Shown one piece after another: positions 19,259-55,362 of a stretch of 55,362 bases of DNA. The stretch lies in IMG/VR virus record IMGVR_UViG_3300006734_000009, positions 1-55,362 of that record; one strand, given 5' to 3'. Below the pieces are notes generated by a model. That model was given only the letters and a program-made list of their open reading frames with translations, made no database searches and was not told the origin of the DNA. How positions within the stretch are numbered: position 1 is the stretch's first letter; each line of letters starts with the position of its first letter. This DNA comes from a virus. Its lineage: Duplodnaviria; Caudoviricetes. Both the position numbers and the translations under genes were made by a program.

Positions 19259-20077
19259 ATGTGGTTCAATGTGCTAAAAACTGAGGAAAGGCGGGCCGCC
19301 TACCAAGATTTTCTTAATGCACTTGGGTTGGGGCCGGATGATGACCTGCTGGACACCTCTAAATTGGGCGAGGTTGAAACATATTATCCGAATAACCCAT
19401 CCCCTGTTGCTTTAACAATCCCTGTTGAACCCGGCCAATACATTTATAGATTTTTTTATTCCATTTATAAAGATGAAGTTAGCCTAATAGTTTCAAACCA
19501 ATACGAGCCCTACGAAGATTTCGTATTTAACCTCTTCAAGGAGGAATACCCCCGAGCCTTCTCAACTATACAAAGAATGTTCCTTGAAAAGAAACAAGAA
19601 ATTGAAGAAGAACAAATCAAAAATAACCAAATGTTAAAATTCCAACGATACATGAAGGACGGCTACAATGTTTCCGCCCGTGACATTACTATTAGGCCGG
19701 ATGGACTCTCACCATCTCGGGTCCATATTCAACACTTATTAGTAGAATCCCAAGAATACCTAAGAAAGAGAAGTCCTACCATGAATGTTTTACGAATGCC
19801 TATGAAGAGTTATTACATAGATAAATTTCTAGCGTCCCTACAAAATAATGATTATGATACTTCTCTCGCAGAATTAGTTGAAACGATACATGAAGTATTC
19901 AACCATAGTGGGGGTTCAGTTCATACCCTAATGAATACTGGAACACGAGAAGATTATTATTTAGATTTAATAGAACGCTTACGATATAGGGGATTGATTA
20001 GTCTTAAAAAAGATATGCTACTGTTGTTAGCACTGAAAGAAGAAGAGGATGATGATTTATCAAGTTTATTTGCTTAA
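19259..20077 (+). CDS. WxxhhK-motif protein, paralog family A
   Basis: MWFNVLKTEERRAAY...LFKEEYPR, shared with 20499 and 22871. Confidence 0.7.
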   Translation: MWFNVLKTEERRAAYQDFLNALGLGPDDDLLDTSKLGEVETYYPNNPSPVALTIPVEPGQYIYRFFYSIYKDEVSLIVSNQYEPYEDFVFNLFKEEYPRAFSTIQRMFLEKKQEIEEEQIKNNQMLKFQRYMKDGYNVSARDITIRPDGLSPSRVHIQHLLVESQEYLRKRSPTMNVLRMPMKSYYIDKFLASLQNNDYDTSLAELVETIHEVFNHSGGSVHTLMNTGTREDYYLDLIERLRYRGLISLKKDMLLLLALKEEEDDDLSSLFA

Positions 20078-20167
20078 AGTTCTGTGGGAATAAAAACAAA
20101 AAAGAAAAAAAAATTTCGCAAGTGGCAAAAAAATTCCGGGGCAATTTTTGAAAAGGGGGGTGCAATT

Positions 20168-20494
20168 ATGGGTTGGGAAGAACTACTAAAGAGAGCATAT
20201 GGGAAAATAAGTGAGGCGGATAAGAGGTTAGTAAATTACATTTTGCGTGATGGTGAGTTTAGAACCATTGAAGCAATCATGGATGAAGCATACGATTTAA
20301 TACAAGAAAATAAAAAATTAGGTGATAAAAAAGTTAGTAGAATGGAAGGGAGGCCCCGCCATACCAAATTTGCACAGGGCAGGAGAGCGATACAAGGTTA
20401 TATGCAACTTTCGCCTAATCACGAGGTTAGAGAGACAGAAATAAAACTCCCCAGTGGAAAAGCCGTAAAAGAATATAGATACATCGGAGAATGA
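20168..20494 (+). CDS. WxxhhK-motif winged-helix-like protein
   Basis: MGWEELLKR; ILRDGEFRTIEAIMDE resembles the 9375 protein. Confidence 0.65.
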   Translation: MGWEELLKRAYGKISEADKRLVNYILRDGEFRTIEAIMDEAYDLIQENKKLGDKKVSRMEGRPRHTKFAQGRRAIQGYMQLSPNHEVRETEIKLPSGKAVKEYRYIGE

Positions 20495-20498
20495 GGTT

Positions 20499-21299
20499 AT
20501 GGGTTGGTGGTCAATAGTAAAATCCTCCCGTGAGGAAGCCTACGATAAATTCATAGAAGAGTTTGGTCCGGGGGTAAAATTAGACTCCTTAAAATTATCC
20601 GAGGATGAACAAGACAATATATATCTACCGGGAGATAAATGGTATATTAAATTAGAAGAGGGTAAAATATCATTTCGCTCTAGGCTTGGACACGAAGCAT
20701 TCGTTGAAGGAATGTTTAAGGAGGAATACCCGGAAAGGTATCAAGAATTATTGGAAATGGTTAATGGGGCCCCACTTACCACAAACCACGAAATTCCCCT
20801 AGATGTAATAAACAGATATTTAGAGTGTATGAAGCAAATTCAAAAATATCTTGTTGATGTGATTGCAAACGAATATAGTGATAACACCCTCAGTAAAAGA
20901 GATGTGATGATGGCTCTTGCCCTTTACGGAGCCGATAATATCTCTCCAACTTCTATTAGTAGACTAATTGATATGGGATTAGCAAGTAAAACATATGGTC
21001 CCGATTTAAATTTAGAGGGAGGTGAGGGGTTGCATGTTATGGTTCATTCAATCGCTACGGTCGTGTCAAATAGAACATTAAACCACCCCTTCGTTCAAGA
21101 GTTAAAGCCGAGTGACGAGGCCCACTTCCGAGAACGATTACAATTAGCATATTATGACTTATATGGGTGGGGAATTTCAGACAACGACTTTAGTAATCCG
21201 GTGTTTTACTCTGCTTCACATCTAGCAGACCAAATAGATTATGTAATAAAAATATTATCCGGTATTTACCAAAGGGTTATGATAGAACGGAGAGGGTGA
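20499..21299 (+). CDS. WxxhhK-motif protein, paralog family A
   Basis: MGWWSIVKSSREEAYDKFIEEFGPG...GMFKEEYPER. Confidence 0.7.
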   Translation: MGWWSIVKSSREEAYDKFIEEFGPGVKLDSLKLSEDEQDNIYLPGDKWYIKLEEGKISFRSRLGHEAFVEGMFKEEYPERYQELLEMVNGAPLTTNHEIPLDVINRYLECMKQIQKYLVDVIANEYSDNTLSKRDVMMALALYGADNISPTSISRLIDMGLASKTYGPDLNLEGGEGLHVMVHSIATVVSNRTLNHPFVQELKPSDEAHFRERLQLAYYDLYGWGISDNDFSNPVFYSASHLADQIDYVIKILSGIYQRVMIERRG

Positions 21300-21303
21300 G
21301 ATT

Positions 21304-22077
21304 ATGGGTTGGGAAAATAATATTAAAAAACAAACTAGATTTGATACTAGTTTTGATGAAGTCGTAGAGGCTTTTGAAAAGGTCACATCACATCCTAATT
21401 TTAAACACGATGAAAGTTTTTACTGGTCAGTATACGACTCTGCAAGACAGGTTTATTTACGGGTCGCTGACGGCTCACCACTTTTGGAAGCCATTAGGGA
21501 TGTTTATGGACTTGATAATGAATCGGGACGATTTGGTTTTCGTGATAGGAAGGAACAAATACTCCACTATTTAAAGCAAGACTTAGAAACACTGGCAAAA
21601 GTAAGGTCGGAGAGGTGGCTTGAAACCATTATGGGGACTTACTCGGATAGGATTACTAATCCAGAAATTCGTAAGGCCCAATTAAAATTTGGATACGATG
21701 GACTTAACTACCGTATTGGGAGGGCACTCATAAGAATAACAAACGGAAGATTCCGAATAGATATTTGTGTTCTTCCCGCAGATGATACGCTACCCTTCCA
21801 TGACCACGCCGCTAATGTCTTCTTGGCTATTCTAAACTCCCCCGAAGGATTAGATGTGTTAAACTTCGGAATAGGATTAGCAAACATCCTTAAAAGTAGT
21901 AATTATAATACACAGGTTTCTATATTTAGCCCGTTCAATAAAAAGAATAACGAAAACACGGATTTTACGTATTTTTTAAAAGAATTTAAATTAAGAGATG
22001 TAACTTATCCGCTATTATACGAGAAGATTAATGAACTATACAAAGAAATATTTGGCAAATACTGGGAGGACTCGTGA
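21304..22077 (+). CDS. WxxhhK-motif protein, paralog family B (E2-like Cys domain)
   Basis: KVTSHPNF; DICVLPADDTLPFHDHAA; IFSPF..N..F. Confidence 0.7.
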   Translation: MGWENNIKKQTRFDTSFDEVVEAFEKVTSHPNFKHDESFYWSVYDSARQVYLRVADGSPLLEAIRDVYGLDNESGRFGFRDRKEQILHYLKQDLETLAKVRSERWLETIMGTYSDRITNPEIRKAQLKFGYDGLNYRIGRALIRITNGRFRIDICVLPADDTLPFHDHAANVFLAILNSPEGLDVLNFGIGLANILKSSNYNTQVSIFSPFNKKNNENTDFTYFLKEFKLRDVTYPLLYEKINELYKEIFGKYWEDS

Positions 22078-22874
22078 TGTGGTGGAGTATAATTAAAGAC
22101 GATAGATTTAATAGATTTTTATTGAAAGCAATTGAGCGTGTTTATGAAAAACTTAGTAAGATAACTTCCCACCCCGATTTTAACCTTGAAGCGTTCAATG
22201 AAAGGGCGAACGACTACGCTAAAACCACCTTTAAACAATTTGATGAAACATCTAATGAGGCTGAGTTCACAGAAAAAATGGTTTCTATTTATGGTGAAAG
22301 TCGTTTTACAAATACACAATTAGTAGCGGCAATAAATGACATTTTCCAAGAACACCGATTACTAACTGGTAATAGAAGTATGCTGGTATTACAAGGTATG
22401 GCTTCCGACTTAAATATAGATATAGAGATTGATACCAAAAATTACCCTCGTCAACCCTACACGGTTAATTTTTCCTACGGTGGTCTTGACTATAAAATGC
22501 ACGATGGTGGTCTAAATATTTATGTGGACAACGCCAAAATTTGGGTCTGCATAGGAGATACGGCCAAACTTCCAATAGGTGATTTTTACGCTAGTATGTT
22601 GGGTCTCCTTAAAAACGACCCAGCAAGAATTCCTACTTTGGAATTCGGCATTAAACTTGCCGATATTTTAAAAACACACATGAGTAGTATTAAAACCTAT
22701 TATCCTAATTCTTTATTTCTTGAAATTCACACACCCTTCATGGCTGACGAACCGGTTAATGAAGAGTTTCAATTTTTTATCCAAAAACTAAAAAGAAACA
22801 TGAGAAAGGATATTTTAGACGAAATTAAGCAGGCCCTCAAAGAAACTGTTGGGAACGATGGGGGTTTCTTTTGA
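22074..22874 (+). CDS. WxxhhK-motif protein, paralog family B (E2-like Cys domain)
   Basis: KITSHPDF; RSMLVL; VCIGDTAKLPIGDFYASMLGLLKND. Confidence 0.7.
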   Translation: MMWWSIIKDDRFNRFLLKAIERVYEKLSKITSHPDFNLEAFNERANDYAKTTFKQFDETSNEAEFTEKMVSIYGESRFTNTQLVAAINDIFQEHRLLTGNRSMLVLQGMASDLNIDIEIDTKNYPRQPYTVNFSYGGLDYKMHDGGLNIYVDNAKIWVCIGDTAKLPIGDFYASMLGLLKNDPARIPTLEFGIKLADILKTHMSSIKTYYPNSLFLEIHTPFMADEPVNEEFQFFIQKLKRNMRKDILDEIKQALKETVGNDGGFF

Positions 22875-23170
22875 TGTGGTGGGAAATATTGAAGTCTACC
22901 CGTGAGGAGGCCTACTCTAACTTCGTGGAACAATTTGGTCCGGGGACGAATCCCGAAGATTGGGGGAGTCAATTTACAACTCTAATTGTGGCTGGTGGGT
23001 GGGTGCTTGGTTTAGATAATTCAGGTGATATTTTGCTAGGAAGCGATATGGAATATAAACCCCACAGGGATTTTGTTTTAGGTATGTTCGGGGAAGAATA
23101 CCCCGAAAGATTAGAAGAAATACGGGCAATCTTAGAAAAAAAGGTTCACGAGGAACCCAAAGAAATATAA
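22871..23170 (+). CDS. WxxhhK-motif protein, short family A paralog
   Basis: WWEILKSTREEAYSNFVEQFGPG...GMFGEEYPER. Confidence 0.65.
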   Translation: MMWWEILKSTREEAYSNFVEQFGPGTNPEDWGSQFTTLIVAGGWVLGLDNSGDILLGSDMEYKPHRDFVLGMFGEEYPERLEEIRAILEKKVHEEPKEI

Positions 23171-23219
23171 AGAATGCCCTAGATGGACATTCCATAGACG
23201 ACTACAAAATTGTGAGGGT

Positions 23220-24134
23220 ATGACGATGTGGGAAGTTATAGTTAAGGACGACATTGAAGATACCCCTTATTATACTCTATTTGAGGAATTTGCAGCCGCT
23301 TACGAAAATCTAACAAAACACCCGAGTTTTTCCAAAAAAATGCTTGATGAAAATTATAGTGAAGAATTTTGGGGCTTTCCTCACCCCTATTACAGTTTCT
23401 TTTCTAGCATTTATGAGGAGTTTGGAGACACCGCCCCCACCGCTTTTGATTTTACTCCCAGTGATATGAAACAGTGGCTTATTGATAAAGAAGTTTCGAT
23501 GGGCCTACCTCGCGACCAGTATGCGCTACAACCACACCATAGTTTTTTACAGAAAGCGATAAGATTTTTACAACGAACCTACGGGGATTTAGCCAAAATT
23601 AGAAGTCTTACTGTGTTAAGAGGTATGGCTGAATCAATGGGTAAGACCATTACAATTAAAGATTCCGATGTAGACTATAGAATAGAAGTTGATTTTTCAC
23701 ACGAAGGGTTAGATTTCACACTAAGGCAAGGTCGCCTACATGTTAAAACTCAACAGGGAATCACACTAGTAGTTTGCGTGGTGGATGAAAGGGAACTACC
23801 CGTGGGGGATTATTTAGCCTCCCTATTAGGTTTAGTCGTCGCAAAACCCGAACAAATCCCCACCGTAGAGTTCTCTATTGAGTTTGCTAAACTCATTAAC
23901 AAAAATCCGGGTATAAATTGGGGGGGTTTGCTCCCCGAGGACTGGACCGAAGATAAGAACGATGTTATCGGTATTTTTACTCCCTTTGAAAGAGACAACG
24001 ACGAAAACTCAGATTTCGGACATATGCTTTACGAATTTTATGACTATGCAGTTGGGCAAACAAACCCGACCGCATACATGGAATTAGAGAAACTATTGAC
24101 CCGTATATTTGGAAGGGAGGCGTGGTTTGAATGA
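23220..24134 (+). CDS. WxxhhK-motif protein, paralog family B (E2-like Cys domain)
   Basis: LTKHPSF; RSLTVL; VCVVDERELPVGDYLASLLGL. Confidence 0.7.
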   Translation: MTMWEVIVKDDIEDTPYYTLFEEFAAAYENLTKHPSFSKKMLDENYSEEFWGFPHPYYSFFSSIYEEFGDTAPTAFDFTPSDMKQWLIDKEVSMGLPRDQYALQPHHSFLQKAIRFLQRTYGDLAKIRSLTVLRGMAESMGKTITIKDSDVDYRIEVDFSHEGLDFTLRQGRLHVKTQQGITLVVCVVDERELPVGDYLASLLGLVVAKPEQIPTVEFSIEFAKLINKNPGINWGGLLPEDWTEDKNDVIGIFTPFERDNDENSDFGHMLYEFYDYAVGQTNPTAYMELEKLLTRIFGREAWFE

Positions 24135-25561
24135 GTTGGAAATTGATTTTAAAAAACCAAAAGGACACTTTGGAAAGGCTAATAACTTCCCTTGAGAACA
24201 GGGGACACCCGGAATACCCCGGTGATATTATTAGGGAACACATTGATGGACTTAAAGACATAGAATGGAATGGGGACTTTGTTTTTAGTAATAAGCACAG
24301 CGAAATTAAATTTCACCCTAGAGAGTTTTTTAATACTCGTGTAGTGAGCGTGGATAGGTTTTTCACTTTAATGGATAAAGAAAAATTTATAGACCTCTAT
24401 GATACTGATTTTGAGCAGGACCCGGACATAGAAGATTTGGGCTACAGTAGAGAACAATTAGAAGGCATCTTAGCCTCCTTCAAAGCACTAAATTGGTTTT
24501 TGGAAAATGTTCCTGCCGGTCAAATAGAAACCTCTAGGTATTCATCTGGTAATTGGATGGCATTTGATGTGGGAGAGAGCAGAATTATTGTAAATCTAAC
24601 CCCACAATGTAGCAACAGGGCTAGTTATTGGTCGGGAGAATACGATATGTGTCTCTCCCCCGATGAACAAGGTGATGCAAAATCACCTGCCGATAGATGG
24701 CTTACTTATTACATGTTATACTCATCTTTGTCCGAAATGGACGAATCCGAAATTGAGCAAATGGCAGATAAACAAATGATTCCTGATGTAATTTGGCACG
24801 CCTCCGTCGGTGGGGGGGATTTGACTTGTAGCAATTGCGGAACGGGAGTTATTTGGGTCCAGTTAAACGACCCGGGCGGACATGAAGAATGCGACTACTG
24901 CGGAGCGATGCTAGATAAATCAGACTACCAAATAGAAATACACGAGGGCGACGGTATTCATGGGACGGTTGAAGCCGTCGGCATCGGTTGTCCTTACGGA
25001 CACCAAGTTAATTACCACGATGGAAGTAGTTTTTATTGTGATGAACACGGTGTTAACATTATCAATGAAAATAAAGGAGCATATGAATATGAGGGCTTAC
25101 AGGGTATTGGGGATTATCGTATCTATAACGGAAGACTTTTTAATGATAATACATACGAAATAAGAGACATGAGATACGAAACACTAAGAGAGTTGTTCAC
25201 CTTTGAAGAAATGGTAGACGACCCGGAATTTAGAGAATACGCATTTGACGCCTATAATTACCAACTCGTTGACGGCCAAGATGATATATATTACTCGGAC
25301 ATACAAGAAAATTACTATAATGTTGAAACCGATGAATTTACCGAGCCCCAGCCCGAAAAATTTGAAGAAATGAAGGGCCACATCCGTTCCTCCGGTATAG
25401 AAGTTGAATTTGACGAGGATATGCCCTTTGCAGAATCCTTAAGTGAAGTCATAGAAAGGGTTAAAGAAATGATTGCCGAGGGAGAAGAGGAAGAGGAGGA
25501 ACCCAATTACCTAAAGGACGCAAAAAACCTACTCTTGGAATTAGAATCTATGGAGTATTGA
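24131..25561 (+). CDS. WxxhhK-motif acidic protein with divergent Cys domain and two Zn fingers
   Basis: MSWKLILK; MCLSPD..SPADRWLTYYML; CSNC..CDYC; CPYGH..CDEH. Confidence 0.7.
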   Translation: MSWKLILKNQKDTLERLITSLENRGHPEYPGDIIREHIDGLKDIEWNGDFVFSNKHSEIKFHPREFFNTRVVSVDRFFTLMDKEKFIDLYDTDFEQDPDIEDLGYSREQLEGILASFKALNWFLENVPAGQIETSRYSSGNWMAFDVGESRIIVNLTPQCSNRASYWSGEYDMCLSPDEQGDAKSPADRWLTYYMLYSSLSEMDESEIEQMADKQMIPDVIWHASVGGGDLTCSNCGTGVIWVQLNDPGGHEECDYCGAMLDKSDYQIEIHEGDGIHGTVEAVGIGCPYGHQVNYHDGSSFYCDEHGVNIINENKGAYEYEGLQGIGDYRIYNGRLFNDNTYEIRDMRYETLRELFTFEEMVDDPEFREYAFDAYNYQLVDGQDDIYYSDIQENYYNVETDEFTEPQPEKFEEMKGHIRSSGIEVEFDEDMPFAESLSEVIERVKEMIAEGEEEEEEPNYLKDAKNLLLELESMEY

Positions 25562-25599
25562 CAAAAGAATATAAATAGTAATAGCGGAGATGGTGTAAT

Positions 25600-25809
25600 A
25601 TGAAGTGGCAAGATTTTTTGAAGAAGTCCGATGTTAGTCGGGAAGATTGGAACACCGCTATCAAATCCTTTATTGACGAGGGTAAAAAATTAGGCGTCCC
25701 GCTAGATGTAATCTCTTTACTAAAGGAGGCCATGACGACTTCCTCTTCGGATGCTTCTGCGGTCATCAACACCACCTACGGAGGAGATGAAGATGACGAA
25801 AACGAGTGA
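25600..25809 (+). CDS. Small WxxhhK-motif protein
   Basis: MKWQDFLKKS. Confidence 0.6.
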   Translation: MKWQDFLKKSDVSREDWNTAIKSFIDEGKKLGVPLDVISLLKEAMTTSSSDASAVINTTYGGDEDDENE

Positions 25810-26941
25810 TTTTTCTTGGAGGCAGGACGAAGCCCGAGCCTTAATGGATAAGTTTGAACAGTTTTGGTCGCAGAACCCCGGCGACTACGGTATTACAGGT
25901 GGAACCGATGCTGGTTCGGGCGGTGCAAACGCTAAAAATTTATTTGTCACAATGCAGAACCACGGCTCAGTTTCTAGAAAAACCAAAGGAAAGGGTTCCG
26001 TTGGTGGATTGTTTTTTGGGGCGGGGGCCGTTTGGGAACAACTAGAGGACTTAGTAGAGGATAATTTAATTTTGGAAGACGAGGTTGAAGATTTTGACCG
26101 CCTCCTACGACAACTTGACCGATTAGAGGGCGGGGACCGCGACCCAAGAAATATTATTTTTAACACGGTTATTTCCTACGATAGTGAGAGTGGGGAGGCC
26201 GAAAGAGGAGAAGTTAGGGGGCATTTCCTAACCGAGGCCTACTACAACTTCCGTAAGGATAAAGCAGAAAAATCCGGCTCGGCCTACAATGTTTCCCGAC
26301 CAAAGGAGGAGTGGGTATCTCTAGATAAGAAAAAAAACGAGGCAAAACCCCCACTGTGGAGAATTATCTTCGGAAGAAAAAACAGTCTCCGCACGCTAAT
26401 TGAGGACATCAAAAAACTTACAGAGCCGATTCCACCACCCATCGCACACTTGGATGTAAAAATTAATAAAAGAAGAACCGGACAACTTGCTAAAATTACT
26501 CAAGTTCAACAGGCTGTAAGAAATGTATTGGAAATGCCTAGTATTTATGAAGCAGGAAAGCGGCGTGCGCCAAACAAAGGTAGGCTTAACGAGGCCATGA
26601 GCCAACAGGTCATTGGCACTACACCCGAAATGATGAAATTGATTGGTCCCGATGCAACCGTTTTAGTGGAAAACGAGGGAAAAATTATTACCCGTAATTT
26701 AGACGAGTTTCCCAATTATGAGAATATTAAATCCATTACCTTGAATTTTCCTAGAAATAACATTATTTTAAACAGACTCATTAGAGAAGTTATGGGGGAT
26801 GAAATGGAAACCTTTGAACGACCTAACCGAGTTGAAGATGGCCCCATCGGTTTAGTATTAACCTCAGCCGACGAAGCAGAATTAATTCACGACGCAACTA
26901 CTATTATGAAAAATTTAATGGGGTGGAACCGTGAGGCGTAA
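25793..26941 (+). CDS. Hypothetical (probable virion-associated) protein
   Basis: Long ORF in the late operon. Confidence 0.65.
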   Translation: MTKTSDFSWRQDEARALMDKFEQFWSQNPGDYGITGGTDAGSGGANAKNLFVTMQNHGSVSRKTKGKGSVGGLFFGAGAVWEQLEDLVEDNLILEDEVEDFDRLLRQLDRLEGGDRDPRNIIFNTVISYDSESGEAERGEVRGHFLTEAYYNFRKDKAEKSGSAYNVSRPKEEWVSLDKKKNEAKPPLWRIIFGRKNSLRTLIEDIKKLTEPIPPPIAHLDVKINKRRTGQLAKITQVQQAVRNVLEMPSIYEAGKRRAPNKGRLNEAMSQQVIGTTPEMMKLIGPDATVLVENEGKIITRNLDEFPNYENIKSITLNFPRNNIILNRLIREVMGDEMETFERPNRVEDGPIGLVLTSADEAELIHDATTIMKNLMGWNREA

Positions 26942-27596
26942 AGTTTTGAAAACCTGTCCGTTGTGTAATCACCCCCAACGGGATGAATTAGAAAGAGACA
27001 TTCTTTCCGGTGATATTACCGCAGGAGAACTTGACCGAGAGGAAGATTGGAAAGCGGGAACTACCCGTAGACATATGCAGGAACACTTGGGCGATTATTT
27101 GGATAATTCTAATGAGTCTTGTCCGTTTTGTGTGGCCCCAAACAGAAATGATTTAGAAGCGGCCCTCTCCGCCGGTTCTATGAAGCCTAGCGAGGTCGCT
27201 GAATATTTGGATTGTAGTGTTGACTCGGTTAGATTGCATATGAAAAAGCACCTTAAGCCGTTGGTGCAGAAGGCCGCTTCTTTAGAGTTAGCAAAGGTTG
27301 AAATTGACGAGATTAATATGTTGAGTAATAACATTCAAATGCTACAACAGAAGGTGCAGGAATTTATTTTTGACAACGATGAATTAGACCACCGGACGAT
27401 TGACTCGTTGGTTAAATTAAGTAAAGAAATCCGAGAGTCGTTAAAATACGCTTTGGAGTTTAAGGGACAATTAGTTCACAAGCGGGAGGAAACCGTAGTG
27501 GTGCAACAAATTGAAGTTATCCAAAAGGTTTTAATAGACCGTTATCCACAGGTATGGAACGAGATACGAGATTCAATAGCGGAGAGATTAGCATGA
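26931..27596 (+). CDS. Putative terminase small subunit (duplicated Zn-HTH plus coiled coil)
   Basis: Two repeats CxxC..P.R..LE..L......RHM..HL, followed by an oligomerisation coiled coil. Confidence 0.55.
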   Translation: MRRKVLKTCPLCNHPQRDELERDILSGDITAGELDREEDWKAGTTRRHMQEHLGDYLDNSNESCPFCVAPNRNDLEAALSAGSMKPSEVAEYLDCSVDSVRLHMKKHLKPLVQKAASLELAKVEIDEINMLSNNIQMLQQKVQEFIFDNDELDHRTIDSLVKLSKEIRESLKYALEFKGQLVHKREETVVVQQIEVIQKVLIDRYPQVWNEIRDSIAERLA

Positions 27597-28087
27597 GTTG
27601 GGAAGATGTATTAAAAAGAAGTGTGTTAAACAACCAATTGGGGGAATTTATTGAATATTTACAAATGACCCCCCCGGAATTTGATAACGAGACTAGTTTT
27701 ATAGGTGTTAAAAGAGTAGAACCAACCGAAGAAATCCCCTTTCCCACTGTAACTATTAAGGTTAGAGAGCCAGTAGAAGCAAAAATAACAAAAAGAGAAC
27801 TTTCAAAATATGCTAAAAACACAGTAGAAGAAGACGGAGAAATTCTAATAAATGGGATTGTTATTGGTGAATATTTTGAAGAGGGCGGAGATATTCTAAT
27901 AAATCAAAGTCGCTCAATAACAGATTCACAAATTCAAGAAGTTTTTGATTACTTCGTAAATAATATCACCGATGAAGAATTAGCAACCTATAAAGAAGAA
28001 CTTCCCCAAATGTTTAGTAGCGCACAGTCTTATTCTCAATCACAGAACTTTTGGGAAAACGCTTTTAGAAATAGTAGGAGAGATTAG
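27593..28087 (+). CDS. WxxhhK-motif protein
   Basis: MSWEDVLKRS; ATGA overlap with the upstream gene. Confidence 0.65.
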   Translation: MSWEDVLKRSVLNNQLGEFIEYLQMTPPEFDNETSFIGVKRVEPTEEIPFPTVTIKVREPVEAKITKRELSKYAKNTVEEDGEILINGIVIGEYFEEGGDILINQSRSITDSQIQEVFDYFVNNITDEELATYKEELPQMFSSAQSYSQSQNFWENAFRNSRRD

Positions 28088-28088
28088 C

Positions 28089-28631
28089 ATGACTTGGTGG
28101 GACATTATTAAAGCAAGAGATTTTATGCAAGAACCCTTGGGGGAAAAATATGACGCATACATGTATATCGTAGACCTCCTAGACAAAAGAGAAATGGCCG
28201 TTAAGGAAATGCTTTTAGAAGCATTTGAGGCTTGGAAGGATGAAAGAATTGAGGTTAGCGTTAATTATTTCACCTTAAGAGGCGGCGGATTCCGACAATT
28301 AGGAATGGTAGAAAATTTGAAATTTACCCCCGAAGAAATAAGAGAATATAAGCAACTTAGTCTAAAAGTAAGTCGTGGACAAGCCACCCCTGAAGAAACA
28401 CAAAGACTTAGAACCCTTAGTGATAAGGGAGGAATTATTGTCGGAGAGGATAAGGGGTCGGGAGAAAACCCATCATCCTTTTACCCCAACAATACTATTA
28501 CTTTTCACAAAGAACCCTTTGACCCAAGCAACGAAAGGGTTTCCTTACAAGTGGAACTTAGGGACGGGGTGTTTTACCCCCTAAATAAAGAGCGGTTTAT
28601 TATCAAAATGGAAAAACTCTTGGGGCTTTAA
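28089..28631 (+). CDS. WxxhhK-motif protein
   Basis: MTWWDIIKAR. Confidence 0.65.
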   Translation: MTWWDIIKARDFMQEPLGEKYDAYMYIVDLLDKREMAVKEMLLEAFEAWKDERIEVSVNYFTLRGGGFRQLGMVENLKFTPEEIREYKQLSLKVSRGQATPEETQRLRTLSDKGGIIVGEDKGSGENPSSFYPNNTITFHKEPFDPSNERVSLQVELRDGVFYPLNKERFIIKMEKLLGL

Positions 28632-28633
28632 GT

Positions 28634-29224
28634 ATGAACTGGAAACTAATTCTTAAGTCGGAAAAGGACCCAAGAGATTTTTTTGAAGGATTTATTAATG
28701 ATAAAAAAGAATATAATAGAAGGGGAAGCAAAGTTTTAACTTCTCTTAAAGAGGGCCTATTTGATTTTATTTCCCGATGGGGCGTTGAAACCTACGAGGA
28801 TATACTAGAATCGGGAGAACTGGGAGATGTTAGGCAAGGACATTTTATTTTTACTAACCAATACTACCGCAACGGAAAAATTGATTTTGATGCTTATAAC
28901 GACCCGCAGGGTAGAGAACAGCGGATAGGAGAGGTTTTACGGAGAGAGGCTTACTATCAAATTTTAGTTTCAGTATCACAAAACAAGCGCAATTTTGGAT
29001 TGCCCCTATTTTTATTTGATATTATAAACGGTGAGGGAGCAGACCCAAACTTTAGACCAACAATTACCGGAGTTTTTGCTGGAAAAAACCCAGATTTGAC
29101 TCAATTTGATACAGAGATTGAGACTGAAATACAACACGACACAATAGAATTCCTTGAAACATTAGTTGAGGAAATTAAAACTCTACCCGAACCTAGAAAG
29201 CAATTGGGGGGCGGTTCGTCTTGA
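28634..29224 (+). CDS. WxxhhK-motif protein
   Basis: MNWKLILKSE. Confidence 0.65.
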   Translation: MNWKLILKSEKDPRDFFEGFINDKKEYNRRGSKVLTSLKEGLFDFISRWGVETYEDILESGELGDVRQGHFIFTNQYYRNGKIDFDAYNDPQGREQRIGEVLRREAYYQILVSVSQNKRNFGLPLFLFDIINGEGADPNFRPTITGVFAGKNPDLTQFDTEIETEIQHDTIEFLETLVEEIKTLPEPRKQLGGGSS

Positions 29225-29436
29225 AGTGGGAAACAATTCTAAAAATTGACTGGCGAGAAATTGTTGACGAGTTAATGCAACCGGACAATGTTCTTTTTGA
29301 CTCGCTATACATGGAACTCTCCCAAAGGTTAGGGTTTAAGGCTCCCTCAAAGGACGAGGTAATTGACTACTTGGAGGATAACTACTCAAGGCATAAAATT
29401 TGGAACAATTTATATAGTATTAGTGAGGATGAATAA
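29221..29436 (+). CDS. Small WxxhhK-motif protein
   Basis: MKWETILKID. Confidence 0.6.
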   Translation: MKWETILKIDWREIVDELMQPDNVLFDSLYMELSQRLGFKAPSKDEVIDYLEDNYSRHKIWNNLYSISEDE

Positions 29437-29543
29437 TTAATGACGAGATGTGTTCTCTTGGATGAATGGTTTGATGCTGAGTCGGAAAAAATTGATAAGA
29501 AAGAATCTAAAACAAAAAAATGTTTTGTAACGGGGGAAAGTAA

Positions 29544-29801
29544 ATGTCTTGGGAAGATATTGTCAAAAAAAGAGACATGACCGGAGGCATGAACTCTATT
29601 GTTGATTTTATCGCCCGTCTGCGAGAAAACATTACCGAGATGGAAGAAATCGTTAAGGAATCGTTTGCTACTTCAACAGACGACCCGATAGCCCCGTTTG
29701 ATGTAGCCGATGCAAAGGACTTACTAGACGACTACAAAAAATTCTCAAAAAGTGTAGAGGTGTTATTTCAAAAAATGATTCAACAGGGGGAGATGGCATG
29801 A
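29544..29801 (+). CDS. Small WxxhhK-motif protein
   Basis: MSWEDIVKKR. Confidence 0.6.
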   Translation: MSWEDIVKKRDMTGGMNSIVDFIARLRENITEMEEIVKESFATSTDDPIAPFDVADAKDLLDDYKKFSKSVEVLFQKMIQQGEMA

Positions 29802-30154
29802 CGGGGTGGTGGGAAATTGTTAAACTCCGGTTGGGTCATTTAGAACACCTCATTGGTCAGTTAACACACTTTCACAACACCTCACTAGCGAGGCAATATA
29901 TTTCTAAAGAGGACCGACCTAAAGCAGAACGCCTCTTTGAAAAAATTAAAGGTATGCTGAATGACCCTAATTTATTTGACAGACTAGACGCAAGAGGAAA
30001 CCCACTAGCAGACCCCATGAATTCCTACTACTCTCTTTTGGTCGCTTCCCCGGAAATGCACCACCGAGACTTTGGACATTTATACGAGGCCATCTTTGAC
30101 CAATTGGAAGAAATGCGTCGTCTAAACTTGGAAGGGGATGGTGTGGGTGTCTAA
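29798..30154 (+). CDS. WxxhhK-motif protein
   Basis: MTGWWEIVKLR. Confidence 0.6.
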   Translation: MTGWWEIVKLRLGHLEHLIGQLTHFHNTSLARQYISKEDRPKAERLFEKIKGMLNDPNLFDRLDARGNPLADPMNSYYSLLVASPEMHHRDFGHLYEAIFDQLEEMRRLNLEGDGVGV

Positions 30155-30932
30155 TTGGTTTTCTATTCTTAAGATTAGAACCCAAGACGGGAAAATGATG
30201 ACTATTCCTAGTATTGAAGAATACCATGAAAAGTTTAGACAAGAACTTCGCCCGGTTGTTCTAGCGGAATACCGAAAGGTAAGCGACCGAGCCACCGAAG
30301 CGTCAAAAATTAACATCAAGCGTTATTCTAAAACCCCCGGTTTTGTTGAATATGATGCCTCTTGGAGGGACAGAAATACCGAAGAAACTCATTCAATTAT
30401 TATCAAGTATAAGGGAAGCGGAGAAGAGGATGAACCCCACGAAGTTATTGCCGTGTTTTCCGACAACCTCGGACCAGAACTACAAATGGGAACGGACTTT
30501 GAAGCAAACACCCCATACGACTTTCTTCAAGAAGTGGTTAAAAGAATTGAAGATTTTTACCAATCCCGAGCAAAAACTGAATCTTTGGGGGTTCCATCAA
30601 TTGAAGAAGATGAGGATAGGGTTTCCACGACCGAATACAATAGAAGTCTAGAAGAAGCAAACCCCGGCTATCGGATGGTCGAAGGTAAATTGAGAAATTT
30701 AGCAGATATGGAAAGACTCGCTAGAATTAAAGGAATTAACCTAAATGAAATCCTAGCGAGAAATAATTTAACGATGGCTGATTTCGTGGATGAAATACCT
30801 CAACAACCACAACCCGAAGAACCCGCCCCAAGAGAACCACAAGTTAGCGAGAGAAGGGAAAGGATGCGGGGAAGAAGAGATTTATTACGCCCTAGAAGAG
30901 GAAGAAGAGGCCCTGTTAGAGAAGAGGAATAA
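30138..30932 (+). CDS. WxxhhK-motif protein with Arg-rich C-terminal tail
   Basis: NWFSILKIR; tail RRERMRGRRDLLRPRRGRRG. Confidence 0.65.
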   Translation: MVWVSNWFSILKIRTQDGKMMTIPSIEEYHEKFRQELRPVVLAEYRKVSDRATEASKINIKRYSKTPGFVEYDASWRDRNTEETHSIIIKYKGSGEEDEPHEVIAVFSDNLGPELQMGTDFEANTPYDFLQEVVKRIEDFYQSRAKTESLGVPSIEEDEDRVSTTEYNRSLEEANPGYRMVEGKLRNLADMERLARIKGINLNEILARNNLTMADFVDEIPQQPQPEEPAPREPQVSERRERMRGRRDLLRPRRGRRGPVREEE

Positions 30933-35128: not shown

Positions 35129-36468
35129 AGAAGGAATTGGGAACTGACGCTAAGGGGAACTATCTCCCCTTGAGAACGGATGATGAAGGTCGTCCGGTTA
35201 GTCCCGATACCTACATTGATGATAAAATTTATTCCGAAGAAGAAATGGTTAGTCTGTTTAGGAAGGTTAATCCCGGTAGGAAAACTAGAGCAGAAATGAC
35301 GGATTTCTTTCCCCCGTTGACGGGACAAGACGCTGATGGTTATTTTATTATGTTTGACCGAGCAAACCCACTTGGAGGAGAACCCCTACCTGTTGGTCGG
35401 GTGGGGTGGAAATATTTACCGGAGCATAAATTATATCTCACCACTGGAATTAAGGTGGTTCCAATGTATCGGGGAATGGGTTTGTCTCGCTCGTTGTGGC
35501 AGAAAAGAGATTCTGCGATTATTAAGAATACTCCTGCTATTGGTATGGCTAGTAATTTCTCGGAGAGTTGGATTAAGTTAATTCAGTCGGAGGGCTGGAA
35601 AATAGACCCTCCGGTGGAGTCCTTACCGGAAAGTATTCAAGACGAGGTTAGAGAAACCATTGAGGGAGAGAAGCCTCGCCGGTTAATTAGTAAGAATATT
35701 GATATGGCTATGAAAAAGGCTTGGGAGGTTTTGAAAATGCCTAAACCATACAGAGGCCCGGATATTAGAAACGAAGCACAATATGAAGCGGCTTCTTTAG
35801 AGGGAAGAATGTTATGGCATAATAACCAAGCAAACGGATATGATTACAGGTTAAGGGCTTTACGGACTAATCATAGCGTAGAACTAACAGACACAGAAAA
35901 CTTAATTTATCAAGAAATGAAATATTACCAAGACATGAGGGCCTTTCACAATAGGCAAGCACAAAGATTAAGGAGATGCCTTGAATTGGGAAAAAAGGAA
36001 TGTAATGATTATTATTCTCAAGAGTTAGAAGGAGATAATAGAAGACAAACAAAATATAAAACTACCCCTACGGGAAAATTAGACCCTTATGTAGAATTAT
36101 CATTAGAAGCCTATAATGATTTAACTAATAAACAAAAAGCAAGGTATCATGCAGGTATGGCCCAGTATAAAGACACTAACTTCCATAACAGAATGTATCA
36201 AAGATTACACTATAACATAAACCTTCCTACTTTTCCTTCGCCTAAATATGGTGGAGAATCCTTTACAGGTAAAGAATATACAAAGGAAGAATATTTAAAT
36301 ATGGATAAAAACAATAAACGAAAATATCACGCTATGATGAAAGGTAGATTTGAAAAGGAAGGAGATATTGAATTATATAAATGGCATAATAAAATGTATA
36401 GTCGGCTTATTCGTGATAAAGGTTCACCAACATATTTCTCACCCGAACACCAACAGGAGGAAGAATAA
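35125..36468 (+). CDS. GNAT-like domain fused to His/Tyr repeat domain
   Basis: IKVVPMYRGMGLSRSL (acetyl-CoA motif A); internal AWEVLK; repeats Y..K.RYH..M / FH.RMY.RL..PT..SP. Confidence 0.6.
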   Translation: MKKELGTDAKGNYLPLRTDDEGRPVSPDTYIDDKIYSEEEMVSLFRKVNPGRKTRAEMTDFFPPLTGQDADGYFIMFDRANPLGGEPLPVGRVGWKYLPEHKLYLTTGIKVVPMYRGMGLSRSLWQKRDSAIIKNTPAIGMASNFSESWIKLIQSEGWKIDPPVESLPESIQDEVRETIEGEKPRRLISKNIDMAMKKAWEVLKMPKPYRGPDIRNEAQYEAASLEGRMLWHNNQANGYDYRLRALRTNHSVELTDTENLIYQEMKYYQDMRAFHNRQAQRLRRCLELGKKECNDYYSQELEGDNRRQTKYKTTPTGKLDPYVELSLEAYNDLTNKQKARYHAGMAQYKDTNFHNRMYQRLHYNINLPTFPSPKYGGESFTGKEYTKEEYLNMDKNNKRKYHAMMKGRFEKEGDIELYKWHNKMYSRLIRDKGSPTYFSPEHQQEEE

Positions 36469-37886
36469 TGGACCTACTAACAGAGATGGATATGAAAGCC
36501 TCCAAAGGCAACTTTGAATATTTCTTCACTAAGGTTCTAGGTTTTGAAATGGCCCCCTTCCACAGGGAATGGCTAGAGCGTGTTAAATCCACCCAACGCA
36601 CCGTTACAATTTGTTCACGGGACCACGGTAAATCAGTTTTCTTCCATTCGTGGTGCGTGTTCCAATTGTGTTTCCAAGAACCCCCATACGAAATTATCTA
36701 CATTTCCTCTAACCAAAAACAAACAATGGTTCACATGAAGGACATTGACAGAATGTTTTCTACCATTCCCGCCTTGAAGAAGTTCAAACCTAAACAGGGT
36801 TGGGCCGTTGGCCGAATGGAATTAACCAATGGGAACCGCATCGTTGAAAGGTCGGTTGGTTCTCAAATCCGTGGACTCCACCCCGATGAAATTATCATTG
36901 ACGACCCGATGAAGGAGTTCTCTATGACCGCCATCCAGCGAGTAGCAGATTGGTTTTGGGGAGATATGATTCCTACCCTTCACCACACCTCCTCTTTGAG
37001 AATGATTGGAACGCCCTTCACCTACACGGATATATTCGCTGAATTAGAGGAAAACACCGAGTATGATGTGAAGCGTTATCCCGCCATCAATCAAGCAGGT
37101 GAAGCACTTTGGCCCTCCCGTTGGGATATTGATTCGCTGGACCGACGCAGAAGAGAAATTGGTTCTTCCAAGTTCACAAGAGAATACCTTTGCATTCCTA
37201 TTTCTTCTAACACAATGTTGTTTGGAAAAGAGCATGTGGAGAAAGCAAAAGACCGCACTTCTTCCCTACAATACTACGGAAACAACGAAGCATTCAAATA
37301 CTACATAGGCTACGACCCATCTATGAGCATTAACGGAGACTACACCGTTATGATTGTTCTTGAGGTGGACGAGGAGTTAAACAAAAAGGTCGTTCACATG
37401 GTTCGGGAAAAGAACATGGACTTCCGTTCACACATTACCCGCATTACCGACCTATGCCAAAGATTCTCACCTGAAATCGTAATGATTGAAACGAACACCT
37501 TCGCTAAGTCTTTCGCTATGGAACTGCGAGATATTTCCGACTTTCCCGTAAAGGAGTTCACTATGAGTAGGAAGAAGAAAGAAGAAATCATTCTTAACTT
37601 GCAGATGAATTTTGAGAACAATAAAATTTTCCTGCCGTATCAAAAGGACGAGGACAGAAAGGTTTCTAATATCATCGTGCAAGAACTAGAGGCTTTCGGT
37701 ATTGGAAACAACGGAAGAATCGAAGGGCTGGGCGCACACGACGACACCGTTATTGCTTTGGCGTTGGCTAATTACGCTACAAAAACATTTACAGACACAT
37801 TTATTGAAATTGAGGACTCAGGTATTTTTGCCACTAGCGGTCCGACCATGAATCTAGGAGGTGGAATTTTTGGTATTAATTATTAG
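36468..37886 (+). CDS. terL: Terminase large subunit
   Basis: Walker A SRDHGKS, IRGLHPDEIIIDD Walker B, IGTP, RNase H IGYDPS..DYT, HDDTVIALALA. Confidence 0.95.
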   Translation: MDLLTEMDMKASKGNFEYFFTKVLGFEMAPFHREWLERVKSTQRTVTICSRDHGKSVFFHSWCVFQLCFQEPPYEIIYISSNQKQTMVHMKDIDRMFSTIPALKKFKPKQGWAVGRMELTNGNRIVERSVGSQIRGLHPDEIIIDDPMKEFSMTAIQRVADWFWGDMIPTLHHTSSLRMIGTPFTYTDIFAELEENTEYDVKRYPAINQAGEALWPSRWDIDSLDRRRREIGSSKFTREYLCIPISSNTMLFGKEHVEKAKDRTSSLQYYGNNEAFKYYIGYDPSMSINGDYTVMIVLEVDEELNKKVVHMVREKNMDFRSHITRITDLCQRFSPEIVMIETNTFAKSFAMELRDISDFPVKEFTMSRKKKEEIILNLQMNFENNKIFLPYQKDEDRKVSNIIVQELEAFGIGNNGRIEGLGAHDDTVIALALANYATKTFTDTFIEIEDSGIFATSGPTMNLGGGIFGINY

Positions 37887-39249: not shown

Positions 39250-39251
39250 TT

Positions 39252-49237: not shown

Positions 49238-49238
49238 A

Positions 49239-55162: not shown

Positions 55163-55362
55163 ATGGGATGGTGGAATGTTGTTAAAATGGTTAGAACCAA
55201 CGAGTATAGCGATGCACAGCATTTAGATGAAAAGGCCTTTGTTGTAAATGATGCTATTTGGCTAGAAGCAGGTGGTCGTCCGTGGAAAAATGACGATGCC
55301 GAGGGTTGGAAATACATGGATATTGAAGACATTGAGGAATCAATAGGTCGTAGGTTAACTTA
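55163..55362 (+). CDS. WxxhhK-motif protein (truncated by window edge)
   Basis: MGWWNVVKMVRTNEYSDAQHL...; open to the end of the window. Confidence 0.6.
   Translation, partial: MGWWNVVKMVRTNEYSDAQHLDEKAFVVNDAIWLEAGGRPWKNDDAEGWKYMDIEDIEESIGRRLT

What the first reader, a model, noticed from the sequence alone, without database searches (positions are those of the whole stretch)
21304..25561. The same E2-like Cys domain is expanded in 3-4 late-region paralogs carrying a putative virion-targeting leader
Seen: 21304 (RSERWL...ICVLPADDTLPFHDHAANVFLAILN), 22074 (RSMLVL...VCIGDTAKLPIGDFYASMLGLLKND), 23220 (RSLTVL...VCVVDERELPVGDYLASLLGL) and, more weakly, 24131 (MCLSPD..SPADRWLTYYML) align with the 7666 protein (RSMELV...ICIDQMDTNVSLGDQIASRVMVFIND). 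The Cys and the downstream Asp are kept in all, and all four start with the WxxhhK motif. Inference: a diversified family of E2-like enzymes or decoys packaged in the head and injected, each with a different N-terminal (target-binding?) region. This would link the Ubl system to the virion.
Basis: partly seen in the sequence, partly recalled or inferred. Interest (0 to 1): 0.8.

Follow-up and report, generated by a model that had tools for sequence, protein, structure and literature searches.

The report
Cys-domain paralogs in a magrovirus
An archaeal ocean virus carries three tandem copies of a new protein family with one invariant cysteine, probably a distant E2-like fold, and they share an eight-residue start tag with many other genes of these viruses.

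Summary
The window is a magrovirus, group-B-like (virus of marine group II archaea). ORFs 21304-22077, 22077-22874 and 23220-24134 are true paralogs (blastp E 4e-13 to 7e-19). They belong to a virus-restricted family with no Pfam or PHROG match: 35 representatives among 1.84 billion. Its parts are an N-terminal tag, a helical domain, and an alpha/beta domain with an invariant Cys followed by LPxGD. ORF 24131-25561 is at best a remote relative.

"E2-like" is therefore plausible but unproven. Nothing tested bears on packaging or injection.

The tag M-x-W-x-x-[IV]-[LI]-K is real but not specific to these genes. It heads 14 of 58 window ORFs, or 17 counting looser forms, and 374 ORFs in 80 related viral loci. 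Verdict: partly supported; new variant of a known kind.

The parts
21304..22077 (+). Paralog 1 (257 aa). It has a degenerate W tag (MGWENNIKK), a helical domain with the SHP motif, and an alpha/beta Cys domain. Cys155 is the codon at 21766-21768 and Asp167 the codon at 21802-21804.
   Evidence: ORF. blastp to the other two paralogs gave E 4e-13 and 2.8e-17.
22077..22874 (+). Paralog 2 (265 aa from the ATG at 22077; the listed ORF starts at GTG 22074). It has the W tag MWWSIIK. The alpha/beta domain spans about residues 92-257 (22350-22847). Cys158 is the codon at 22548-22550 and Asp169 the codon at 22581-22583.
   Evidence: The AlphaFold model has pLDDT 91.9 and places Cys158 at the end of strand 153-158, with a helix starting at 167.
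23220..24134 (+). Paralog 3 (304 aa), with W tag MTMWEVIVK. Cys186 is the codon at 23775-23777 and Asp197 the codon at 23808-23810.
24131..25561 (+). Probable remote relative (476 aa). It has the W tag MSWKLILK, a core with invariant Cys174 (24650-24652) and Asp188 (24692-24694), then Cys-pair zinc-ribbon-like motifs and an acidic C-terminus.
   Evidence: The family of 5 is. It is linked only through P0070. Direct profile comparison to the paralog family matched only the tag.
7666..8979 (-). Early-strand 437-aa protein without the tag; homologs start at the ATG at 8973 (435 aa). The C-terminal domain at 7753-8253 (residues 241-407 of the 435-aa form) is the proposed E2-like domain. In 437-aa ORF numbering, Cys360 is the codon at 7900-7902, Asn351 at 7927-7929 and Asp372 at 7864-7866.
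   Evidence: 31 homologs were found and 23 aligned. The model has pLDDT 81.
6553..7110 (-). Short (185 aa) E1-like ThiF-family adenylyltransferase, two genes downstream of 7666.
   Evidence: Pfam ThiF E 1.8e-18. It matches the E1 halves of PADLOC 'E1-E2' models with E down to 4.7e-11. All NCBIfam ThiF/MoeB/UbaA hits are below their cut-offs.
5057..5599 (-). Protein with a JAMM/JAB-type motif (H-x-H, then 7 residues, then S-x-x-D).
   Evidence: Pfam Prok-JAB E 0.0075, below its cut-off. The motif is visible in the translation. The gene is conserved at 83-86% identity in two relatives.
19259..30932 (+). First cluster of W-tag ORFs. Starts are at 19259, 20168, 20499, 21304, 22077, 22874, 23220, 24131, 25600, 27593, 28089, 28634, 29221, 29544, 29798 and 30147. 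Two untagged ORFs, 25751-26941 and 26931-27596, are interleaved.
55163..55362 (+). First W-tag ORF (MGWWNVVK) of a second cluster, cut off by the end of the record.
   Evidence: The relative G001 has 11 tag-like ORF starts at 72672-78262 in the matching place.

Best explanation
SHOWN. The window is a magrovirus. Three tandem genes (21304, 22077, 23220) are diverged paralogs, 24-28% identical, of a family restricted to these viruses. Each protein has an 8-residue N-terminal W tag, a helical domain with a near-invariant S-H-P motif, and an alpha/beta domain of about 170 aa. In that domain an invariant Cys ends a beta-strand and an invariant L-P-x-G-D opens the next helix. Copy number varies: a syntenic relative has one copy where the window has three.

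INFERRED, about 65-70%. This alpha/beta domain is a distant homolog of the C-terminal domain of the 7666-8979 protein. That protein sits in a conserved block with an E1-like ThiF adenylyltransferase and a JAMM-motif peptidase.

INFERRED, about 55%. The shared domain has a UBC/UEV/RWD-type (E2-like) fold, with the Cys lying between the beta-meander and the crossover helix, as in E2 enzymes.

PROPOSED MECHANISM, about 25-30%. 7666 is the working E2-like partner of the viral E1-like enzyme. The tagged paralogs are thiol-bearing E2-like modules whose different N-terminal helical domains give different partners or targets.

The W tag is a general address or recognition peptide of magrovirus accessory proteins, not a feature of this family. 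Capsid targeting of the phage T4 type is one candidate role (about 25-30%) and is untested.

The confidence given (0.45) is for the combined reading that the paralogs carry a Cys domain homologous to that of 7666 and of UBC-like fold.
For: - Virus identity: large terminase subunit, portal, S78 prohead protease, SU10-type capsid protein and a DNA ligase inside the structural block. Also a chaperonin and a class II ribonucleotide reductase, and tRNA-Arg plus tRNA-Leu. These match passages on group B magroviruses in PMC5434244.
- Paralogy.
- Family: 35 proteins at E<=0.001 in the exhaustive search. Cys, Pro and Asp are invariant in 27 of 27.
- Link to 7666, domain-only hhalign: Cys segment score 28.6 (P 0.0012) and helix segment 22.3 (P 0.013). 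The 150 column shuffles had mean 13.4, sd 2.4 and maximum 21.2; the reversed control scored 17.7.
- With the models' secondary structure added, the two collinear segments gave P 0.0014 and 0.0046. Helix aligned to helix, and strand-Cys-loop-helix to the same pattern. The reversed control gave P 0.58.
- An HMM of the paralog domain ranked the three 7666 homologs 6th, 7th and 10th of 731 six-frame ORFs (E 0.031, 0.072, 0.37), each as two collinear pieces.
- Context: the order 7666, HTH protein, ThiF, two small Cys-rich ORFs, JAB is conserved in two relatives.
- Variable copy number.
Against: - Every hhalign probability is 19% or lower.
- The exhaustive HMMER search with the paralog profile returned none of the 31 members of the 7666 family.
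- The reverse HMM ranks paralog 22077 only 7th, at E 1.2.
- Foldseek found nothing at E<=0.001 for either model. Its best rows for the paralog are PD-(D/E)xK nucleases (BsoBI, E 0.014).
- Both models have an extra strand after the post-Cys helices, which canonical E2s lack (the E2 topology is recalled).
- Pfam UQ_con and Prok-E2_A give nothing in the window at E<=10. No member of either family hits an E2 family.
- The paralogs have no conserved Asn before the Cys.
- No ORF ends in Gly-Gly and no Ubl family was detected among the small early ORFs.
- The paralogs lie 12-17 kb from the E1/JAB block, on the other strand.
- The two models could not be superposed on each other with the tools at hand.
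Confidence: 0.45

Rival explanations
1. The paralog family is unrelated to 7666 and to E2 enzymes. The shared h-C-h ... G-D ... motif and the helix motif are chance or convergent. The alpha/beta domain is a generic helix plus beta-meander plus helix arrangement, and the Cys serves some other chemistry (for example another thiol enzyme) or a structural role. On this view the genes are simply fast-evolving accessory ORFans.
For: - hhalign probabilities are at most 19%.
- HMMER finds no link.
Against: - There are two separate motif matches in the same order. Each exceeds the best of 150 shuffles and falls in the same predicted secondary-structure context.
- The residues concerned are invariant in both families.
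- The 7666 homologs are the best non-family full-length hits of the paralog HMM, apart from one further divergent relative.
Confidence: 0.3
2. The domain is UBC/UEV/RWD-like but not catalytic. The tagged paralogs would be adaptors or decoys that bind a Ubl, an E1 or some other partner without forming a thioester. The Cys would be kept for packing or binding.
For: - The paralogs lack the conserved Asn that the 7666 family keeps 9 residues before its Cys.
Against: A single Cys invariant in 27 of 27 sequences that are otherwise 20-40% identical is unusual for a purely structural residue. UEV domains typically lack this Cys (recalled).
Confidence: 0.15
3. The domain is a degenerate PD-(D/E)xK nuclease-like fold (alpha-beta-beta-beta-alpha-beta).
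For: - Foldseek's top PDB rows for the paralog model are BsoBI (E 0.014, probability 0.41), Cas4-family ACE1, VC1899, Card1 and Can2.
- The viral structure library BFVD lists several weak nuclease rows.
- The extra strand after the helices fits this topology (the topology is recalled).
Against: - TM-scores are 0.12-0.18.
- There is no conserved acidic residue or Lys in the beta-strands of either family.
- The structure aligner VIA-align puts E2s, not nucleases, among the alpha/beta-domain rows.
Confidence: 0.05

Closest known systems
E2 / UBC-superfold proteins, including prokaryotic E2-like proteins linked to E1 and JAB (CBASS Cap2, Bil/Bub systems)
   Same: - The predicted order is N-terminal helix, beta-meander, Cys, then helices.
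- 7666 is a neighbour of an E1-like ThiF protein and a JAMM-motif protein.
- The 7666 family keeps an invariant Asn 9 residues before the Cys. This recalls the Asn of the E2 HPN motif (motif recalled).
   Different: - There is no HMM match to UQ_con, Prok-E2_A or the E2 halves of PADLOC E1-E2 models.
- The models have an extra strand after the helices.
- The paralogs lack the Asn and sit far from the E1 gene.
- No Ubl gene was seen.
- The host is an archaeon, and the elements are viral genes rather than a defence island.
Phage T4 internal proteins with their capsid targeting sequence (CTS)
   Same: - Many otherwise unrelated, fast-changing proteins share only a short conserved N-terminal peptide.
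- The gene set differs between close relatives.
- The review PMC3012670 (passages read) describes T-even internal proteins as a highly diverse set with only a conserved CTS that takes them into the scaffolding core.
   Different: - Nothing here shows encapsidation or cleavage.
- The tag marks a much larger share of genes: 14-17 ORFs in 55 kb, and up to 20 in one 14-kb locus.
- No conserved cleavage site follows it, since information content falls to background right after the Lys.
- The sequence differs from the T4 CTS.
Magroviruses (Magrovirales), group B
   Same: The window has ribonucleotide reductase, a chaperonin, tRNA-Leu plus tRNA-Arg, a ligase in the structural block, and a replicative and a structural block on opposite strands. 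These match passages of PMC5434244.
   Different: The three magrovirus papers searched by term contain no occurrence of ubiquitin, ThiF, JAB or N-terminal. The Cys-domain family, the E1/JAB block and the tag appear to be undescribed there. Supplements were not seen.

Membership tests
E2 / UBC superfamily (Pfam UQ_con PF00179; Prok-E2 families) | Sequence match to a family HMM | tested here: not met
   - Pfam scans of 7666 and the four ORFs found no E2 family at E<=0.1.
- PF00179 and PF14457 searched in the window at E<=10 gave 0 matches.
- None of the 23 members of the 7666 family and none of the 27 paralog-family members hit an E2 family at E<=10.
- Only Prok-E2_A of the Prok-E2 families was searched directly in the window.
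E2 / UBC superfamily | UBC fold (helix 1, four-stranded meander, crossover helix, C-terminal helices) | tested here: inconclusive
   [not shown]
E2 / UBC superfamily | Invariant catalytic Cys between the meander and the crossover helix | tested here: met
   The Cys is invariant in 27/27, 23/23 and 5/5 sequences. In both models it ends the last meander strand, 9-10 residues before the next helix. Residue-level equivalence to an E2 Cys was not shown.
E2 / UBC superfamily | Conserved Asn (HPN motif, recalled) a few residues before the Cys | tested here: inconclusive
   The 7666 family has invariant D346 and N349 and near-invariant G347 (D-G-x-N), with N349 9 residues before C358. The paralog family has no conserved Asn there.
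E2 / UBC superfamily | Gene neighbourhood with E1, a Ubl and a deconjugating peptidase | tested here: inconclusive
   For 7666, the E1-like ThiF and the JAMM-motif gene are adjacent and syntenic in 2 of 2 relatives. No Ubl was found. The record is about 57% complete. The paralogs are not adjacent to these genes.
E2 / UBC superfamily | Thioester formation with an activated Ubl | not testable with these tools
   This needs biochemistry.
T4-type capsid targeting sequence | A short N-terminal peptide shared by otherwise unrelated proteins | tested here: met
   14 of 58 window ORFs carry it, against a shuffle mean of 0.025. Across 27 tagged ORFs only W and K are invariant, and mean column identity is 12%. 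There are 374 tagged ORFs in 80 loci. The codons vary.
T4-type capsid targeting sequence | Presence of the tagged proteins in virions and removal of the tag by the prohead protease | not testable with these tools
   No proteome data are available. No conserved site follows the tag.
PD-(D/E)xK nucleases | Conserved D ... (D/E)-x-K in the core strands | tested here: not met
   There is no conserved acidic residue or Lys in the meander strands of either family.

The most novel reading that the evidence does not exclude
The 8-residue N-terminal peptide M-[STG]-W-x-[DEN]-[IV]-[LI]-K is a pan-magrovirus address tag. It would load dozens of hypervariable accessory proteins, among them thiol-active E2-like modules, into the procapsid for co-delivery with the DNA. 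That would be the first CTS-like cargo system in an archaeal virus, and its E2-like cargo would act on the host's Ubl (SAMP)/proteasome pathways at entry.

Two leads, neither of them evidence:
- The C-terminal tail of the protease-scaffold protein carries a tag-like M-[TS]-W-[ED]-E-I in the window and in G001.
- The tag core fits the recalled [W/F/Y]-x-x-[L/I/V] type of Ubl-binding motif.
Probability: 0.12. Interest if true: 0.85.

Novelty: new variant of a known kind. Interest (0 to 1): 0.6.

Why it matters
Magroviruses are reported as abundant archaeal viruses of the surface ocean (PMC5434244, passages read), and most of their genes have no assigned function.

If the Cys domain is a true E2-like module, these viruses carry an E1/E2-like/JAB set plus an expanding family of E2-like paralogs. 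Their hosts belong to a domain whose known Ubl conjugation (SAMPylation) works without an E2 (recalled). That would bear on how viruses use ubiquitin-like chemistry and on the spread of the UBC fold.

Whatever the fold turns out to be, the shared N-terminal tag on hundreds of unrelated ORFs is a concrete, testable handle. It could be checked by virion proteomics, N-terminal peptide mapping or binding assays, and it applies to the largest block of unknown magrovirus genes.

Tried and rejected
- Complex prediction: two copies of the E1-like ThiF protein with 7666 residues 236-435 gave 'no answer' (score 0.00, controls not run). This is no evidence either way.
- ESM Atlas: its own models of both proteins are poor (pLDDT 0.39 and 0.44) and no feature hits were returned, so it was not informative.
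- BFVD and PDB by Foldseek: nothing at E<=0.001.
- PDB sequence search with both family profiles: only chance-level rows, with best E-values of 0.93 and 0.038.
- PHROGs, PADLOC and NCBIfam: nothing for 7666 in any of them. For the four ORFs, nothing in PHROGs or PADLOC, and in NCBIfam only one chance-level row (23220, E 0.076).
- tblastn of 7666 and of 22077 against 50,697 GenBank phage records: no match.
- The search for related loci in viral contigs: with the 9-sequence paralog alignment, 73 pattern matches and none confirmed.
- Genome-contig scan with the 7666 family: the machine gave no answer twice. Cellular homologs and host links were therefore not examined.
- RNA-level origin of the tag was rejected. 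The hydrophobic positions use many different codons, and Rfam finds only the two tRNAs.
- Direct profile comparisons of the 24131 family gave only the tag against the paralog family, and nothing against the 7666 family.
- A Ubl was sought through C-terminal Gly-Gly ORFs and through Pfam on ten small early ORFs. None was found.
- Supplementary files of the papers were not consulted.

Full report
WHAT THE WINDOW IS

The record is a 55,362-base viral contig, estimated at about 57% complete.

On the + strand it has a large terminase subunit (36468-37886), a portal (39246-40880), an ATP-dependent DNA ligase inside the structural block (45954-48032), an S78 prohead protease (48089-49237) and an SU10-type major capsid protein (49203-50453).

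On the - strand it has a Cpn60/TCP1 chaperonin (1-1596), a class II ribonucleotide reductase (9626-11503) and a pyrimidine-dimer glycosylase. It also has tRNA-Arg(TCT) and tRNA-Leu(TAA) at 11876-12042.

Passages of PMC5434244 ascribe exactly this combination to group B magroviruses, the viruses of marine group II archaea: ribonucleotide reductase, a chaperonin, tRNA-Leu plus tRNA-Arg, and a ligase embedded in the structural module. No cultured phage is close; the best terminase match is 26% identical.

THE OBSERVATION

The quoted peptides are all there.

ORFs 21304-22077 (257 aa), 22077-22874 (265 aa) and 23220-24134 (304 aa) are homologous along their whole length. blastp E-values run from 4.0e-13 to 6.8e-19 at 24-28% identity.

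An exhaustive HMMER search of 1.84 billion representative proteins with a 9-sequence family profile found 35 proteins at E<=0.001. Aligning 27 of them shows invariant F132, C158, P166, D169, P182, P220 and F221 in the numbering of the 22077 protein. W2, H32, R100, S101, L165 and N228 are nearly invariant.

No Pfam, PHROG or PADLOC family matches, NCBIfam gives only one chance-level row (23220, E 0.076), and no GenBank phage record matches 22077.

ORF 24131-25561 (476 aa) has its own small family of 5 proteins, with invariant C174, D188 and W190 and several Cys pairs. Neither blastp nor hhalign connects it directly to the three paralogs beyond the tag.

It is connected only through P0070, an 871-aa metagenomic protein. 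P0070 scored E 3.4e-4 against the paralog profile. It contains two Cys-domain-plus-zinc-ribbon modules, and it aligns with 24131 at E 0.006 for the single comparison. I treat 24131 as a probable remote relative.

THE LINK TO THE 7666-8979 PROTEIN

This protein has 31 homologs. In the 23 that were aligned, C195, C358 and a block around C358 are invariant (I-C-I-D-Q, then S-x-G-D-Q). So are D346 and N349 just upstream, and an R-S-M-E-L helix motif.

Direct blastp to paralog 22077 gives only 24 bits (E 0.14 in a 58-protein database). None of the 31 members appears among the 35 exhaustive-search hits.

Profile-profile comparison finds two separate segments in the same order.
- The R-S helix: P 0.0014, probability 17%.
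- The Cys/G-D segment: P 0.0051 to 0.018.

With the alignments cut to the domains, the scores are 28.6 (P 0.0012) and 22.3 (P 0.013). The best scores of 150 column-shuffled controls had mean 13.4, sd 2.4 and maximum 21.2. The reversed control scored 17.7.

Adding the secondary structure of the two AlphaFold models keeps both segments (P 0.0014 and 0.0046). The contexts are identical: helix to helix, and strand-ending-in-Cys, loop, helix-starting-at-G-D to the same pattern. The reversed control gave P 0.58.

An HMM of the paralog domain, run against 731 six-frame ORFs of the window and two relatives, ranks the three 7666 homologs 6th, 7th and 10th (E 0.031, 0.072, 0.37).

The Cys-to-Asp spacing is 11-12 residues in the paralogs and 12 in 7666. 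The helix-motif-to-Cys spacing is 54-58 against 115, so 7666 carries an insert.

IS IT E2-LIKE?

The 7666 model has pLDDT 81 and the paralog model pLDDT 91.9. Neither has a Foldseek match at E<=0.001.

VIA-align gives low but recurrent matches to the UBC superfold.
- 7666, second look: 11 of 50 rows are Ubc9/E2 chains aligned over nearly their whole length.

The genomic context favours the reading for 7666. The order 7666, an HTH protein, a 185-aa ThiF/E1-like protein, two small Cys-rich ORFs and a JAMM-motif protein is conserved in both relatives examined.

No Ubl was found, but 43% of the genome is missing. So 'E2-like' is the best available description of the fold, at about 55%. Catalytic E2 activity of the paralogs is a hypothesis, at about 25-30%.

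THE TAG

The peptide M-x-W-x-x-[ILV]-[ILV]-K is at the very start of 14 of 58 curated window ORFs. That is 14 of 36 on the + strand and 0 of 22 on the - strand. The shuffle mean was 0.025 and the maximum 1 in 2000 shuffles.

Adding the looser forms at 21304, 29221 and 55163 gives 17. The codons at the hydrophobic positions vary freely, so selection acts on the peptide.

The 88-kb relative G001 has about 20 such ORFs in two clusters that flank the structural block.

In the 80 loci read (710 kb) there are 374 tagged ORFs, with a median length of 107 aa and up to 20 in one 14-kb locus. Sixty-four of the 80 loci also encode homologs of window proteins, mostly terminase, portal, ligase, protease or capsid protein at about 40-70% identity.

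Over 348 non-redundant ORFs the consensus is M-[STN]-W-[EKFQ]-[DNE]-[IV]-[LI]-K, and information content falls to background directly after the Lys. One ORF per locus is biased by the seed pattern.

Only 23 of the 374 have a window homolog, and none carries the Cys domain. The tag is thus a general mark of magrovirus accessory proteins.

The closest known parallel is the capsid targeting sequence of T-even internal proteins (PMC3012670, passages). No data here show encapsidation, cleavage or late expression.

Gene content of the tagged clusters is fluid. G001 has one Cys-domain gene where the window has three, and it lacks four tagged genes at 27593-29436. Meanwhile the terminase and portal are 93-97% identical.

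WHAT IS NEW

The three magrovirus papers searched by term (PMC5434244, PMC11706807, PMC10160649) contain no occurrence of ubiquitin, ThiF, JAB or N-terminal. Their supplements were not seen.

I class the finding as a new variant of a known kind. It is a new Cys-bearing, probably UBC-like domain family with viral paralog expansion, carried under a new CTS-like N-terminal tag.

LIMITS

- The two models could not be superposed on each other.
- Complex prediction gave no verdict.
- The genome-contig scan failed twice.

Noticed in passing
window 20080-20170 (+), upstream of the tagged ORF at 20168: A non-coding stretch of about 95 nt is nearly identical between the window and the relative G001, while the flanking coding DNA diverges. 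Gene callers in other viruses have read through it upstream of different tagged genes (P0052, P0053, P0059). It may be a promoter or another regulatory element.
   Followed up: partly
window 19259-20077, 20499-21299, 22874-23170 (+): A second tagged paralog family shares an N-terminal domain of about 85 aa (R-E-E-A-Y ... F-G-P-G). blastp E-values are 3e-14, 3e-7 and 2e-4. G001 has one copy.
   Followed up: partly
window 49180-49237 (+), C-terminal tail of the protease-scaffold ORF 48089-49237: The tail reads ...SEMTWEEIHGLFSKHEGGI in the window and ...NEMSWDEIHDLFSKHKGGI in G001. This resembles the N-terminal tag and lies where a capsid-docking signal might be expected. It is a lead only: the reductase also has a chance W-E-E-I-I-R.
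   Followed up: partly
window 7666-8979 (-) compared with its neighbours: The 7666 protein is only 51-53% identical to its orthologs in two relatives. Its neighbours are far more conserved: reductase 95-97%, ThiF 80%, JAB 83-86% and chaperonin 94-95%. It is a fast-evolving gene in a conserved block.
   Followed up: partly
protein P0070 (871 aa, metagenomic): It reads as three tagged modules in one frame, with tag-like motifs at residue 1, about 395 and about 800. Two modules hold a Cys domain plus zinc ribbon, and the last matches window ORF 25600-25809. It could be a gene fusion, a read-through gene call or a polyprotein.
   Followed up: partly
G001 74588-75394 (+) = L008 14588-15394: This is a further divergent member of the Cys-domain family (E 8e-4 among 731 ORFs). 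It lies in the second tagged cluster, has no clear tag, and has the L-P-x-G-D motif degraded.
   Followed up: partly
window 43956-45290 (+): Fifteen small tagged proteins (107-113 aa) from the IMG/VR loci scanned (L010-L089) match only the last 80 or so residues of this 444-aa head-module protein. This suggests a split or fused gene.
   Followed up: no
window 26931-27596 (+): An untagged 221-aa protein with Cys pairs lies inside the tagged cluster. It is 92% identical in G001 and is found at 41-72% identity in many of the 80 related loci. It is a conserved core gene of unknown role.
   Followed up: no
window 4489-4713 (-): A 74-aa ORF has a weak Pfam histone-fold hit (E 0.013, below the cut-off).
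   Followed up: no
[not shown]
   Followed up: no
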